Positions 30,683 to 32,935 of a stretch of DNA of 64,000 bases are shown in pieces. Positions within the stretch are counted from its first letter, which is position 1; each line of letters begins with the position of its first letter. The stretch lies in the NCBI GenBank assembly GCA_016432485.1, contig CP066691.1, positions 740,944 through 804,943 on the forward strand. Reading direction: 5' to 3'. This DNA comes from Candidatus Niyogibacteria bacterium (GTDB taxonomy: Bacteria > Patescibacteriota > Minisyncoccia > HO2-45-28). The notes under the pieces were generated by a model. That model was not told the origin of the DNA. It worked only from the letters and a program-made list of their open reading frames with translations, and made no database searches. A program made the position numbers and the translations under genes.

Positions 30683-31828
30683 GTGCCGGAAAAAAACATT
30701 GAAACTAAATCATTGGAAGAAACAGAGATAATTAAAAATCTTGAGCGTAGAGATGATTTTGAGGCCGAACGGCTTTTACGCTATCTTAATATGCCCGATT
30801 TGTCGCGCGAGGCGGACAGCCCTCTCAAGGAACTTGTTAGCCGAATTTTAAAAATTAAACGTTTATCTGATTTTGACGATATCAAAGTTCCGGAAATAGT
30901 TCCTGCCGACATCAGTTTTGATTTATTTAATTTTCCTGAAGACCATCCGGCGCGGAAACGCTCCGACACTTATTTTATTGACGATAATCATATTTTAAGA
31001 ACCCATACCACTATAATGTGGTATTACTGGCTTAATAACGAAAAAGTTAAAGCGCAAATCGCTGGGCAAAAATCCGTCGGCGCGCTTTCTTACGGAAAAG
31101 TGTACAGAAAAGACGAAATAGACCGAAACCATATGAATGTTTTTCATCAGATGGATGGCTGGTACTTGACCCCAAAAAAAGAAAAAACAATAACGGCTGA
31201 TGATTTAAAAGAGGTCTTGGTTGAAATAGCCAAAACCATTTTTGGCGCGCGCATAAAATACCGCTTTAATAAAGATGATTTTCCTTACACCAGCCCGTCA
31301 ATAGAGATGGAAATAGAGGTTGGCGGTCGTTGGGTTGAAGTTTTGGGCGCGGGAGTTGTCAGAGAAGTTGTTTTAAAAAATCTCGGAGTTGATCCCGAAG
31401 AATATAACGGCTGGGCTTTCGGTTTCGGGCTTGAACGGCTCGCGATTATCAGTATGGATTTGCCGGATATTCGGCTTTTGTGGTCCAAGGACATAAGGGT
31501 TCGGCGTCAGCTTAAACTTGGCCGAAAATTCGTTCCGGTTTCAAAATATCCGCCGATTACGCGCGACATTTCTTTTGTGGTTTCAAGCGATTTCGTGCCC
31601 AATAATTATTTTGATTTAATCCGCGATTTGGGCGGCGATTTGGTGGAAGAAGTTAAGCTGATTGATAAATATGAAAATTCCGAAAAATTCGGCGCGGGCA
31701 AAACCAGTTACACCTACCGCATAATTTATAGAGCACCCGACCGGACTTTGGTTTCGGAAGAAGTTGATAAAATCCAAGCGGAAATTTATCGCCAAACGGC
31801 GGAGCAATTTGAGGCGGAGGTGAGGTGA
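30683..31828 (+). CDS. pheS: phenylalanine--tRNA ligase alpha subunit PheS (GTG start)
   Basis: FPEDHPAR, class II motifs 2/3 (YRKDEIDRNHMNVFHQMDGW; GWAFGFGLERLAII); no pheT follows. Confidence 0.85.
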   Translation: MPEKNIETKSLEETEIIKNLERRDDFEAERLLRYLNMPDLSREADSPLKELVSRILKIKRLSDFDDIKVPEIVPADISFDLFNFPEDHPARKRSDTYFIDDNHILRTHTTIMWYYWLNNEKVKAQIAGQKSVGALSYGKVYRKDEIDRNHMNVFHQMDGWYLTPKKEKTITADDLKEVLVEIAKTIFGARIKYRFNKDDFPYTSPSIEMEIEVGGRWVEVLGAGVVREVVLKNLGVDPEEYNGWAFGFGLERLAIISMDLPDIRLLWSKDIRVRRQLKLGRKFVPVSKYPPITRDISFVVSSDFVPNNYFDLIRDLGGDLVEEVKLIDKYENSEKFGAGKTSYTYRIIYRAPDRTLVSEEVDKIQAEIYRQTAEQFEAEVR

Positions 31829-31830
31829 TG
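31790..31830 (+). repeat. direct repeat copy 1 (41 bp = last 12 codons + stop of pheS)
   Basis: cgccaaacggcggagcaatttgaggcggaggtgaggtgatg; 40/41 identical to 32895-32935. Confidence 0.85.
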
Positions 31831-31852
31831 TTGGGTGTTTTAGATTTGATTT

Positions 31853-31886
31853 AAACGGCTCAACGGCAAGTCCCGTTGAGCCGTTT
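31853..31886. repeat. palindromic hairpin aaacggctcaacgg-N6-ccgttgagccgttt (REP-like)
   Basis: same 14-15-bp arms recur at 44228-44263. Confidence 0.75.
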
Positions 31887-31920
31887 GGGTTAAGCTATTG
31901 AACCATTGCGACGGGGTTGA

Positions 31921-31983
31921 CCCACACACCCACTTTGCCATTTTTAATTTGCGCCTTGCGCTATGGCAAAGTGGGTGTGTGGG
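31921..31983. repeat. 63-bp element: perfect 21-bp inverted repeat (cccacacacccactttgccat) with 21-bp spacer, flanked by ggttga/gggttga
   Basis: lies between an 18-nt upstream motif and the -35 box of promoter P1; removal restores the spacing seen in homologous promoter P4. Confidence 0.7.
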
Positions 31984-32011
31984 TTGACAAAGCATGTTGC
32001 TGGAGTATAAT
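31984..32011 (+). promoter_or_regulatory. consensus sigma-70 promoter P1: TTGACA-16-TATAAT
   Basis: exact -35 and -10 hexamers; ~100 nt upstream of GC-rich ORF 32114. Confidence 0.6.
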
Positions 32012-32113
32012 GCAAAGGTAGTTCTTAAACATTTATGGTCCGTCTGACCCCGCATAGGGCGGGGCAAGGACGACGCCAAAATCCCGCCGTAGGGCGGAGA
32101 GGAGGACTCGGTT

Positions 32114-32788
32114 ATGAAACCGACCCTGGATCAAGGAAGGAAGCTGTTGGAACTCGTATCACAAAGCGGAAGGTCAGCCAAATGGGTGCAGGAACAGCTC
32201 TTTGGCTCCGGGGCTTTCACGGACCTTCTCGCGGTGGACGACTTGGAGGGAGTACACCGCGAGAGCCATAGGTGCTTTCTTGGTCTCCCGCCCCTTACAC
32301 CCCCGCTTCTTGAGCCGTTCGGCACCGTCACGGTTCCCGCAATCGCCGAGAGATTCGTCGCTAGCGAGAAGTTTGTGGTGGACACGAGCAAGAGAGCAAG
32401 GGTGAAAATCGGATGGCTGGGCTCGGATTTCAAGTGCTGGTTTCTGGGCAAGACAGAGGAGCCGGTTCAGGAGGCGATCCTTCGCTGCGCCAGACTCACT
32501 CGTGACGCGTTCGACCGCGACATCCGTGAAGAGATTGGTACCGAGTTCGAGGAAACGAGCCTCGCCCAGGTCTACGCTCTTATGGAGCGTCAGCCGAACG
32601 GCGAGGCAGGTAAGCTTCTGACCAACGGTCGCGCGAACACCTTTTGCGTTCGCGACATCCCCGGCGTCCTCCGCGCTGTCCGCGTGAGCTGGCTCGCCGG
32701 CCACGACGGCTGGCGCGTGGACGCCTGCTTGGTCCTGAGCCCGAACTGGTGGTCCGACGGCGACTGTGTCTTCTTCCGCAATTCCTGA
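32114..32788 (+). CDS. hypothetical protein O1, ~60% GC (compositionally foreign)
   Basis: SD gaggagga 7 nt before ATG; 224 aa; no family recognised. Confidence 0.6.
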   Translation: MKPTLDQGRKLLELVSQSGRSAKWVQEQLFGSGAFTDLLAVDDLEGVHRESHRCFLGLPPLTPPLLEPFGTVTVPAIAERFVASEKFVVDTSKRARVKIGWLGSDFKCWFLGKTEEPVQEAILRCARLTRDAFDRDIREEIGTEFEETSLAQVYALMERQPNGEAGKLLTNGRANTFCVRDIPGVLRAVRVSWLAGHDGWRVDACLVLSPNWWSDGDCVFFRNS

Positions 32789-32837
32789 GTCGCTGTGACT
32801 GTCTGAACTTTGGTCACTCTGATTCTAAAACCCTTAG

Positions 32838-32876
32838 CCCCTCGGGTCGCTTGCGACCCGAGGGCGTTGTATTTTT
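32838..32876 (+). terminator. intrinsic terminator (cctcgggtcgcttgcgacccgagg + T-run)
   Basis: perfect 9-bp GC stem followed by gttgtattttt. Confidence 0.7.
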
Positions 32877-32894
32877 GGAAAGAACTTTATCTAC

Positions 32895-32935
32895 CGCCAG
32901 ACGGCGGAGCAATTTGAGGCGGAGGTGAGGTGATG
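32895..32935 (+). repeat. direct repeat copy 2 of the pheS 3' end
   Basis: cgccagacggcggagcaatttgaggcggaggtgaggtgatg. Confidence 0.85.

What the first reader, a model, noticed from the sequence alone, without database searches (positions are those of the whole stretch)
31790..32935. 1.1-kb GC-rich cassette integrated at the 3' end of pheS, bounded by a 41-bp direct duplication of the pheS terminus
The segment 31831-32935 is bracketed by two copies (40/41 identical) of the last 12 codons plus stop of pheS. Between them lie a REP-like hairpin, a 63-bp perfect-IR element, a consensus TTGACA-16-TATAAT promoter and a leader with two similar hairpins (cgcatagggcg / cgccgtagggcgg). These are followed by a 224-aa ORF at about 60% GC, against about 44% in flanking genes, with a perfect SD and a textbook intrinsic terminator. 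Regenerating the target gene's 3' end with a long direct repeat is the classic footprint of site-specific (tyrosine/serine recombinase) integration. No integrase, transposase or phage gene is present, and pheT, normally adjacent to pheS, is missing. This looks like a tiny integrase-less integrative cassette or moron delivered in trans.
Basis: seen in the sequence. Interest (0 to 1): 0.8.

Follow-up and report, generated by a model that had tools for sequence, protein, structure and literature searches.

The report
Variable-protein gene cassettes stacked behind pheS
In a tiny groundwater bacterium, the gap between the pheS and gyrB genes holds two self-contained genes for "variable" binding proteins of the type normally rewritten by a diversity-generating retroelement; a duplicated pheS end brackets the first gene and looks like a scar of how such cassettes get stacked, which is a local curiosity rather than a new kind of mobile element.

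Summary
The repeat is real: 47 nt at 31784-31830 and 32889-32935, 44/47 identical with a 35-nt exact core, and unique in the window. The interpretation needs revision.

- **Cargo.** The 224-aa ORF is not an anonymous moron. It is a C-type-lectin-like variable protein of a large CPR family found elsewhere beside template repeat, Avd and reverse transcriptase (DGRs).
- **Second cassette.** A gene of another DGR-target family (33230-33805) follows, with the same promoter/5' motif. The window holds no RT, Avd or template repeat.
- **GC content.** High GC is a family-wide trait (42/43 loci; above their own RT in 15/15), so it is not evidence of foreign origin.
- **pheT.** It is not "missing": this PheRS is the single-chain type.
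- **Locus.** pheS-gyrB synteny is conserved. Close relatives have empty gaps (L022, L023) or different cassettes (L021).
- **Arrays.** Two other lineages (L193, L065) carry three pheS-end copies separating small cassettes.
- **Recombinase.** None was found.

Best reading: alternative pheS-downstream units from close relatives were stacked by recombination in the pheS terminus. A dedicated trans-acting integrase is not excluded. Interest is moderate.

The parts
30683..31828 (+). Single-chain phenylalanyl-tRNA synthetase ('pheS'): class II core plus C-terminal FDX-ACB anticodon-binding domain. The last 147 nt have a different ancestry from the rest.
   Evidence: Pfam tRNA-synt_2d 4.9e-58 and FDX-ACB 2.1e-24. 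NCBIfam pheS_mito 9e-74. Identity to L021 is 0.95-0.98 up to 31681 and 0.78 for 31682-31828.
31784..31830 (+). pheS-terminus copy 1 (S1), the functional end of pheS. It ends in TGATG, a stop codon overlapping an ATG.
   Evidence: sequence.
31853..31886 (+). Hairpin H1 (14-nt arms, 6-nt loop), a resident-type terminator or REP-like hairpin.
   Evidence: I5. Identical arms occur at 44229-44262 after another gene. A similar hairpin (arms AAACGGCTAAACGG, one base different) sits directly after pheS in the empty-site relative L023. It is absent from the homologous position in L193.
31890..31921 (+). Promoter-upstream block (..AAGCTATTGAACCATTGCGACGGGGTTGAC) shared with the sequences that follow pheS-end copies 1 and 2 in L193.
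   Evidence: Alignment A6; L193 sequence.
31920..31984 (.). Perfect palindrome (22-nt arms). It looks like a roughly 60-nt insertion into the -35 region, flanked by a 7-nt direct repeat GGTTGAC (31915-31921 and 31982-31988).
   Evidence: (I1). Absent from the homologous promoter of L193. Found only in this organism's own unitigs among 193 loci.
31984..32011 (+). Promoter of cassette 1, TTGACA-16-TATAAT (12/12).
32019..32113 (+). 5' leader of cassette 1. It starts with TAGTTCTT and has two small hairpins (32048-32064 and 32083-32097) and a GGAGGA Shine-Dalgarno sequence.
   Evidence: TATAAT-N7-TAGTTCTT occurs only at the two cassettes in the window. The leader is conserved in L189, L190 and L015, with 4 pairs kept through changes on both sides. 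MFE is -39.4 kcal/mol, z = -2.8, with the 5' end paired to the SD. No Rfam family matches.
32114..32788 (+). ORF1 (224 aa), a stand-alone homologue of DGR variable proteins. The C-terminal roughly 165 aa are C-type-lectin-like.
32665..32785 (+). Variable-region (VR)-like 3' end of ORF1, with the VR-type end CGCAATTC.
   Evidence: Identical to the TR consensus at 10/28 TR-adenine columns against 65/78 other columns, Fisher p = 6e-6. A content is 9.7%.
32839..32877 (+). GC-rich hairpin plus T run downstream of the VR: a terminator, at the position where a hairpin follows the VR in the related loci L189 and L190.
   Evidence: Sequence is conserved in L189 and L190.
32889..32935 (+). pheS-terminus copy 2 (S2), a non-functional 47-nt fragment that starts abruptly after the cassette 1 terminator.
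   Evidence: The junction is present in Logan unitigs L006-L008.
32958..33036 (+). AT-rich stretch with three AAATTCTAT repeats and hairpin H2 (arms 32993-33005 and 33024-33036).
   Evidence: Sequence. H2 is unique in the window.
33061..33229 (+). Promoter of cassette 2 (TTGACA-17-TATAAT, 12/12), TAGTTCTT start at 33097 and a structured leader.
   Evidence: The leader is nearly collinear with that of L193 and similar in design to L101 and L106.
33230..33805 (+). ORF2 (191 aa), a stand-alone homologue of a second, larger DGR variable-protein family. The VR-like end is about 33660-33802.
   Evidence: 553+ homologues. Homologues lie next to bAvd and RVT_1. 9/9 RT-linked loci have TR/VR pairs with 0 non-A and 7-15 A mismatches per 50 nt. 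The window VR matches the TR consensus at 11/27 A columns against 45/61 others, p = 0.004.
33812..33877 (+). Hairpin after the ORF2 VR and the last cassette 2 sequence. Homology with the L193 DGR stops at 33877, so spacer, TR, avd and RT are absent.
33878..33923 (+). Conserved gyrB promoter block (TTTGCATTGTTTTGAAGCAATAAATCTGCTATAAT..), the right edge of the variable gap.
   Evidence: Shared with L021 from exactly this base. In L193 the same block directly follows pheS-end copy 3.

Best explanation
What it is. The 1.1-kb segment is one of two tandem, self-contained genes for DGR-type variable (C-type-lectin-like) proteins. Both lie in the variable gap between single-chain pheS and gyrB of a Candidatus Niyogibacteria (CPR) genome. 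Each has a perfect sigma-70-type promoter, a transcript start motif TAGTTCTT, a structured leader, a GC-rich ORF ending in a variable region, and a hairpin or terminator. Neither has a reverse transcriptase, Avd or template repeat within the 64 kb, so in this window they are stand-alone ('orphan' or remote) targets.

How the repeat most likely arose (inferred). In this clade, different strains carry different 'pheS end + downstream cassette' units. Two such units from close relatives became stacked by recombination in the pheS terminus. This needs one exchange in the 35-nt identical block and one illegitimate join, placed where the cassette 1 terminator meets the abrupt start of the second copy. 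Geometrically this is either Campbell-type insertion of a circularised fragment or one-sided homologous plus illegitimate recombination of linear DNA. The enzymes would be the host's own recombination functions, not an element-encoded integrase. The second copy is therefore a displaced or retained pheS end, not a proven att site.

Shown: the anatomy, the identity of the cargo, the empty and alternative sites in relatives, the recurrence of pheS-end arrays, and the mosaic pheS 3' end. Inferred: the order of events and the enzymes.
For: Cargo identity. ORF1 homologues sit beside TR, bAvd and RT, with adenine-only TR/VR differences. The same holds for ORF2 homologues. Both window VRs differ from TR consensus mainly at TR adenines (p = 6e-6 and 0.004). 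The ORF1 model has a C-type-lectin-like fold.

Absence of DGR machinery. The window has no TR (adenine-tolerant scan) and no YxDD ORF. No RT or recombinase appeared in 31 proteins scanned. About half of the well-flanked ORF2-family loci are also stand-alone (12 of 22).

The locus. pheS-gyrB synteny holds in 59 of 80 related genomes. The gap is 250 bp or less in 39 and 0.34-4.3 kb with unrelated small genes in 20. One of those (L051) holds a complete DGR. The closest relatives have empty gaps (L022, L023) or two different cassettes (L021).

Recombination. Identity to L021 falls from 0.95-0.98 to 0.78 inside the last 147 nt of pheS and is about 0.8 in gyrB.

Recurrence. L193 and L065 each have three pheS-end copies separating small cassettes, and 0 hits were obtained with shuffled tails. 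In L193 and in the window, each copy is followed by sequence of the kind that natively follows pheS, either the promoter block GA(A)CCATTGCG..TTGAC or the gyrB promoter. In L193 a truncated avd abuts copy 2, and in the window cassettes 1 and 2 are cut just after their VR hairpins. That pattern is expected if incoming DNA overwrote the rest of a resident DGR.

No general att-type mobility of the cargo. There are no bracketing repeats at 80 ORF2-family loci, L015, L189 or L190. The families are essentially absent from 2.9 million viral contigs.
Against: A 35-nt perfect core with all three differences confined to one end is also what an att-type identity block looks like. Three independent pheS-end arrays could mean a dedicated system. 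Only 64 kb of an 837-kb genome was visible, so a trans-acting recombinase (or a DGR) elsewhere cannot be excluded. No microhomology or other direct trace of the illegitimate join could be established. Cassette 2 is not followed by a third pheS copy, unlike L193. Hairpin H1, of a type resident in this genome, lies inside the bracketed segment, which complicates any simple ordering of events. The presence and activity of RecA or competence functions were not tested.
Confidence: 0.55

Rival explanations
1. This is a true site-specific integrative mini-cassette. The pheS terminus is attB, the cassette's circular form carries an attP with a replacement pheS end, and a tyrosine or serine recombinase encoded elsewhere (in trans) inserts and excises it. 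Arrays grow by successive insertions at the functional pheS end.
For: There is a 35-nt exact core and the gene end is regenerated. Arrays of three pheS-end copies occur in L193 and L065, with similarity falling with distance from pheS in L065 and the last copy abutting the native gyrB promoter in L193. The modules are compact, for example 316 bp for promoter, 70-aa ORF and pheS fragment in L193. Empty sites exist in relatives.
Against: No recombinase was found in the cassette, in the 31 window proteins scanned, or among the ORFs listed downstream of pheS in L065. The left ends of the copies vary (about 40, 47, 51 and 115 nt), and the copies in L193 and L065 share no long identical core. The cargo families are not bracketed by repeats anywhere else. 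Many other insertions in the same gap leave no pheS duplicate.
Confidence: 0.2
2. A functional alternative rather than a structural one. ORF1 and ORF2 are live remote targets of a DGR located elsewhere in the 837-kb genome, not orphans.
For: Both keep VR-type 3' ends and downstream hairpins like those of RT-linked relatives. Non-adjacent and remote targets are documented (PMC5758913, PMC8144416).
Against: No TR or RT lies within 64 kb. Each protein is the only member of its 90%-identity cluster, although it was seen on 3-6 contigs and its unitigs occur in up to 15 samples, so no VR variants were detected. The two VRs belong to different classes and would need two TRs. CPR DGRs are reported to have mostly a single adjacent target.
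Confidence: 0.3
3. Assembly artefact, or a free 1105-bp circle. The metagenome graph has a 35-mer node with two entries and two exits, so the cassette could be a separate circular or tandem molecule, or belong to a co-existing strain, rather than being integrated as drawn.
For: All Logan (k = 31) unitigs for pheS, cassette 1 and cassette 2 end at the 35-mer. Reads are not available here.
Against: The join of the cassette 1 terminator to a truncated pheS end is present in independent runs. The deposited 837-kb contig passes through both copies. Analogous arrays exist in unrelated assemblies, L193 and L065.
Confidence: 0.05
4. A long target-site duplication made by a transposition-like insertion with staggered cuts 47 nt apart.
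For: Sharp repeat boundaries. A second roughly 40-nt near-perfect repeat brackets a 172-nt insert at 37188-37439 in the same window.
Against: No transposase and no terminal inverted repeats at the cassette ends. The three differences are all synonymous and clustered in 12 of 47 nt, which is unlike neutral decay of one copy. The copies in L193 and L065 look like pheS ends from diverged lineages (third-position bias 17/31).
Confidence: 0.03

Closest known systems
Variable (target) proteins of diversity-generating retroelements, especially the cellular CPR/Patescibacteria DGR clade, including non-adjacent or remote targets (PMC8144416, PMC5758913; structural example TvpA, PDB 2y3c)
   Same: ORF1 and ORF2 belong to families whose members carry a C-terminal VR matched by an adenine-mutated TR next to Avd and RT. 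ORF1 has a C-type-lectin-like fold, there is no other recognisable domain, and a VR-type 3' end and hairpin are present.
   Different: No RT, Avd or TR lies within 64 kb and no VR variants were seen. Two targets of different VR classes sit side by side. Each has its own perfect promoter and conserved leader.
Integrative elements and islands that target the 3' end of tRNA, tmRNA or protein genes and leave displaced 3'-end copies, and integrase-less derivatives flanked by att sites (cis-mobilisable elements, CIMEs). Recalled from my own knowledge.
   Same: The gene end is regenerated, a direct repeat brackets the insert, tandem arrays carry several gene-end copies, and relatives have empty sites.
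   Different: No integrase is present anywhere in view. The units are only 0.3-1.1 kb. Repeat length and sequence vary between copies. No phage or conjugation genes belong to the unit.
Homology-facilitated illegitimate recombination and additive flexible genomic islets exchanged through conserved flanking genes. Recalled from my own knowledge.
   Same: The pheS 3' end and gyrB are mosaic, a variable gap lies between two conserved genes, there are abrupt non-homologous joins, and resident DGRs are truncated next to incoming pheS fragments.
   Different: The process was not observed directly. The perfectly identical 35-nt block is not required by that mechanism.
Integron gene cassettes
   Same: Small single-gene units arrayed head to tail at one site.
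   Different: The units carry their own promoters. There is no attC-like imperfect palindrome with a GTTRRRY core (the palindrome at 31920-31984 is perfect and appears to be an insertion). No IntI is present.

Membership tests
DGR variable (target) protein | C-terminal variable region homologous to VRs that have a cognate template repeat differing only at adenines | tested here: met
   L010, L095 (ORF1 family) and 9/9 RT-linked ORF2-family loci have such TR/VR pairs. The window VRs align to them and differ mainly at TR-adenine columns.
DGR variable (target) protein | C-type-lectin (or Ig) fold carrying the VR | tested here: met
Active DGR system at this locus | Reverse transcriptase and accessory Avd gene near the target | tested here: not met
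   No tblastn hit to two DGR RTs or Avd in the window. No YxDD ORF of 120 aa or more. The Pfam scans show none.
Active DGR system at this locus | Template repeat matching the VR at all non-adenine positions | tested here: not met
   An adenine-tolerant scan of both strands of the window found nothing for either VR. The rest of the genome is not testable here.
Site-specific integrative element (att-flanked) | Direct repeats at both ends that include the target gene's 3' end | tested here: met
   47 nt, 44/47 identical, with a 35-nt exact core.
Site-specific integrative element (att-flanked) | Integrase or recombinase encoded in the element or demonstrably acting in trans | tested here: not met
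   None in the cassette and none among the window proteins scanned. A trans-acting enzyme outside the window is not testable.
Site-specific integrative element (att-flanked) | Unoccupied target site in related genomes | tested here: met
   L022 and L023: pheS stop to gyrB about 110-130 bp.
Site-specific integrative element (att-flanked) | Same att core and the same element recurring at the same site in other genomes | tested here: inconclusive
   pheS-end arrays recur (L193, L065), but with different cargo, variable fragment length and 74-78% identity. The exact 35-mer is absent from viral contigs.
Integron cassette | attC recombination site and a promoterless ORF | tested here: not met
   The cassette has its own 12/12 promoter. 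The palindrome is perfect and lies upstream of the gene.
Two-subunit bacterial PheRS (pheS/pheT) | Alpha subunit without an anticodon-binding domain, with a partner pheT gene | tested here: not met
   The protein carries FDX-ACB and matches pheS_mito best. All 80 loci kept from the related genomes matched through to the last residue of the query, FDX-ACB domain included.
Known structured RNA (Rfam) for the leaders | Match to a curated covariance model | tested here: not met
   Only tRNAs at gathering thresholds. Only generic hairpin (miRNA) hits at E of 1 or less.

The most novel reading that the evidence does not exclude
The pheS terminus is the docking site of a CPR-specific, integron-like platform. 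Promoter-equipped mini-cassettes, preferentially genes for DGR-type variable binding proteins, would be captured, stacked and exchanged there by a recombinase acting in trans. The conserved promoter, TAGTTCTT start and leader module would serve as the common expression (and perhaps recombination) handle.
Probability: 0.1. Interest if true: 0.8.

Novelty: new variant of a known kind. Interest (0 to 1): 0.42.

Why it matters
If the reading is right, this locus shows how ultra-small CPR bacteria reshuffle their repertoire of hypervariable ligand-binding proteins. These bacteria depend on cell-cell contact and are unusually rich in DGRs. Whole target genes, with their own expression signals, are swapped and stacked in a recombination-prone slot between two essential genes, and they often lose the retroelement that once diversified them.

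It also gives two cautions for genome scanning. A GC or codon-usage outlier need not be recently foreign: this protein family is GC-rich everywhere, even next to its own AT-rich reverse transcriptase. A regenerated gene end need not imply an integrase.

The conserved leader and the unexplained GC bias of DGR targets are leads that can be tested cheaply.

Tried and rejected
- **Known families for ORF1 and ORF2.** Pfam, PHROGs and NCBIfam gave nothing. The two ORFs are not detectably similar to each other.
- **Rfam for the leaders and palindrome.** Only generic hairpin hits.
- **Template repeat or RT in the window.** None. The 178-nt repeat at 23506/26018 looked like a possible TR/VR pair but is an intergenic hairpin-rich repeat.
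- **Resolving the repeat with independent assemblies.** All Logan unitigs stop at the 35-mer.
- **Bracketing repeats as a general property of these cassettes.** None at 80 ORF2-family loci, L015, L189 or L190.
- **Phage or plasmid vector.** No ORF1 relatives, two weak ORF2 relatives and no 35-mer in 2.9 million viral contigs.
- **Hairpin H1 as evidence against integration.** I first treated H1 as proof that the DNA after copy 1 is native. I withdrew most of that weight after L193 showed H1 is absent from the homologous promoter region and may itself be a small inserted hairpin.
- **Using L021 to decide which pheS end is resident.** This failed because either lineage, or both, may have replaced its last 147 nt.
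- **Integron attC and Xer/dif-like sites.** Considered by eye and rejected. There is no GTTRRRY core and no dif-like palindrome in the 47-mer.
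Full report
**Source and observation**

The window comes from a Candidatus Niyogibacteria (CPR/Patescibacteria) metagenome-assembled genome. The two ORFs are NCBI proteins HYY55_04350 and HYY55_04355, on a contig of 836,981 bp.

The repeat is real. Positions 31784-31830 and 32889-32935 are 47 nt long and 44/47 identical. 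The 35-nt core occurs exactly twice in the window and never in 100 shuffles. It spans the last 14 codons of the upstream gene, its stop codon and two more bases (TGATG, a stop overlapping an ATG). The three differences are all synonymous third positions within the first 12 nt.

- hairpin 31853-31886;
- perfect palindrome 31920-31984;
- a 12/12 promoter at 31984-32011 and a terminator at 32839-32864;
- a 224-aa ORF with GC 0.606.

**Corrections to the description**

First, 'pheS' is a 381-aa single-chain enzyme: the class II core plus a C-terminal FDX-ACB anticodon-binding domain, with best NCBIfam match pheS_mito. All 80 loci kept from the related genomes matched through to the last residue of the query, FDX-ACB domain included. 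So pheT is not missing.

Second, the cassette is not alone. A second unit of the same design follows directly. It has a 12/12 promoter at 33061-33089, the same TATAAT-N7-TAGTTCTT motif (found only at these two places in 64 kb), a structured leader, a 191-aa ORF at 33230-33805 and a hairpin. Both ORFs are extreme codon-usage outliers, with GC3 of 0.73-0.74 against 0.467 ± 0.031 for 33 other genes.

**What the cargo is**

Neither ORF matches Pfam, PHROGs or NCBIfam, but genomic context identifies both.

- **ORF1 family.** An ORF1 homologue in a Nomurabacteria genome (P0016, locus L010) is followed by a 113-nt repeat of its own 3' end. All differences in that repeat lie at adenines of the downstream copy (AAC to NNC). 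A bAvd gene and a reverse transcriptase come next. This is a canonical diversity-generating retroelement (DGR). L095 shows the same for another ORF1 homologue.
- **ORF2 family.** Homologues lie next to bAvd and RVT_1. Nine of nine RT-linked loci examined have TR/VR pairs with 0 non-adenine and 7-15 adenine mismatches per 50 nt.
- **The window's own 3' ends.** They align with these VRs and differ from the TR consensus mainly at TR adenines: 10/28 against 65/78 identical columns for ORF1 (p = 6e-6), and 11/27 against 45/61 for ORF2 (p = 0.004).

The literature describes a cellular, CPR-restricted DGR clade whose targets lack recognisable domains, and it documents non-adjacent targets (PMC8144416, PMC5758913).

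The window itself has no template repeat. It has no RT or Avd and no recombinase among the 31 proteins scanned. Each protein is the sole member of its 90% cluster. In this window the two genes are therefore stand-alone copies. This is common: 12 of 22 well-flanked ORF2-family loci lack RT and Avd.

**GC content is not a sign of foreignness here**

In 42 of 43 ORF2-family loci the gene is GC-richer than its surroundings (median +0.11). In 15 of 15 it is GC-richer than the reverse transcriptase of the same element. Examples are targets at 0.54-0.62 against RTs at 0.27-0.34 in L051 and L010. The cause is unexplained.

**The locus**

A scan of one genome per species with the PheRS protein returned 80 loci. 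In 59 of them gyrB follows pheS.
- The gap is 250 bp or less in 39 loci.
- It is 0.34-4.3 kb in 20 loci, filled with unrelated small genes. L051 holds a complete DGR there.
- The closest relatives are informative. L022 and L023 have empty gaps. L021, with 94% PheRS identity, has two different cassettes.
- The right edge of the variable region is the same base in the window and in L021: 33878, the start of the gyrB promoter block.
- Identity to L021 is 0.95-0.98 through pheS up to 31681. It then drops to 0.78 for the last 147 nt and is about 0.8 in gyrB.

This is a recombination mosaic with a breakpoint inside the pheS 3' end.

**The repeat in context**

The closest ORF2 homologue (P0030, 69% identity) lies on a 2.5-kb contig, L193, which contains three pheS-end copies. 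The layout is: copy 1; an ORF2-type DGR remnant (target, spacer, a TR-like stretch, truncated avd, no RT); copy 2; a 70-aa ORF with its own promoter; copy 3; then the gyrB promoter and gyrB.

L065, a more distant genome, also has three copies. They separate two small membrane-protein genes, and similarity falls with distance from pheS.

A peptide-tail scan of all 193 loci found multiple copies only in the window, L193 and L065. Shuffled tails gave none.

The copies differ in length (about 40 to about 115 nt before the stop). In L193 and L065 they are 74-78% identical, with a third-position bias. They therefore look like pheS ends from diverged lineages. In L193 and in the window, each copy is followed by sequence of the kind that natively follows pheS. 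The window's cassette 1 promoter region is homologous to the sequence after L193 copy 1.

Relative to L193, the window has two small insertions: the H1 hairpin block, and the 60-nt palindrome, which is flanked by a 7-nt direct repeat GGTTGAC. Cassettes 1 and 2 are both cut just after their VR hairpins, at points where related loci continue into DGR spacer sequence.

**Mechanism**

The data fit the stacking of alternative 'pheS end + downstream cassette' units from close relatives. This requires one exchange within the pheS terminus and one illegitimate join. Host recombination suffices for it.

The 35-nt identical block is what RecA-type exchange on so short a homology would require. It also explains why the differences lie outside that block.

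It is favoured by the recurrence of arrays and by the compactness of the modules. It lacks any candidate enzyme, a fixed core, or repeats around the same gene families elsewhere.

An assembly artefact or a free circle cannot be excluded without reads, because k = 31 unitigs all break at the core. However, the cassette-to-fragment join is seen in independent runs, and analogous arrays occur in other assemblies.

**Leaders**

The ORF1-type leader is conserved in L189, L190 and L015, with compensatory changes in its first hairpin. In the minimum-energy fold, the conserved 5' TAGUUCUU pairs with the Shine-Dalgarno region. No Rfam family matches. This hints at a shared cis-regulatory module for CPR DGR targets. 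That idea is an inference only.

**Verdict**

The feature is a new variant of known things: DGR target genes, and gene-end duplications at an insertion hot spot. It is of moderate interest.

Noticed in passing
window 32114-32788 and 33230-33805; loci L109-L188, L010, L051: DGR target genes of these CPR families are systematically GC-richer than their host DNA (42/43 loci, median +0.11). They are also GC-richer than the reverse transcriptase of the same element (15/15). In the window their GC3 is more than 8 sd above all other genes. No explanation was found.
   Followed up: partly
window 32019-32026 and 33097-33104; L101, L106, L110, L163, L164, L193: A conserved motif TAGTTCTT(T/A)A lies 7-8 nt after the -10 box of DGR target genes of two unrelated families. 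In the ORF1 leader it pairs with the Shine-Dalgarno region in the predicted fold, so it may be an anti-SD element or a regulatory 5' end.
   Followed up: partly
window 31915-31988: The perfect 22-nt-arm palindrome looks like a roughly 60-nt insertion into the -35 region, flanked by a 7-nt direct repeat GGTTGAC that recreates TTGACA. It is absent from the homologous promoter in L193.
   Followed up: partly
window 31853-31886 and 44229-44262; L023 4788-4821: A hairpin family with arms AAACGGCTCAACGG lies after two different genes in the window. A variant with one base changed in each arm (AAACGGCTAAACGG) lies after pheS in a relative. It is either a REP-like or mobile terminator hairpin or a shared terminator type.
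   Followed up: partly
window 37188-37227 and 37400-37439: A 40-nt direct repeat (39/40), which is the nusG upstream region including its ATG, brackets a 172-nt GC-rich insert between secE and nusG. L022 lacks the whole segment. It is a second short insert bracketed by a roughly 40-nt gene-boundary duplication in the same window.
   Followed up: partly
window 23506-23683 and 26018-26195: A 178-nt intergenic repeat (88% identical) rich in internal inverted repeats flanks the DNA ligase gene region. It is not a TR/VR pair.
   Followed up: partly
window 16669-16750 and 22440-22521: An 82-nt repeat (84% identical) covers the upstream region and the first codons (GFTLIELVV) of two type IV pilin-like genes within a pilus gene cluster (PilB, PilT, PilC and prepilin peptidase-like ORFs, about 12400-23450).
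   Followed up: no
window 52746-54230 and 54945-56837: Two paralogous TraG/VirD4-type coupling-protein ATPases (TrwB_AAD_bind, TraG-D_C). The second has a treble-clef zinc finger.
   Followed up: no
L010 5826, L095 4173, L101 5737/5789, L190 1811 and others: The motif GGTTACGGCTT recurs between VR and TR in CPR DGRs of both target families. It also persists in some RT-less loci (L139, L190). It is absent from the window.
   Followed up: partly
L024, L036, L050, L058, L066, L085, L092, L097 (gyrB): GyrB matches are split by about 1.2-1.6 kb in several relatives, which suggests inteins or other insertions in gyrB. The window's gyrB is uninterrupted.
   Followed up: no
P0149 (926 aa, representative library): One protein carries five tandem copies of the ORF1-type C-terminal domain.
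   Followed up: no
L021 7228-7265 and 7843-7890: In the closest relative, a PaaX/Cas2-like gene in the pheS-gyrB gap is flanked by two similar hairpin-forming repeats of about 38 nt (GTACCTCATT..AGTGAGGTA). A paralogous PaaX_M gene is at window 3177-3824.
   Followed up: no
L095 3382-5897; L051 8939-11317: Complete DGRs lie directly upstream (L095, ORF1-type target) or downstream (L051) of pheS in two other lineages. Three of about 80 pheS neighbourhoods hold DGR material.
   Followed up: partly
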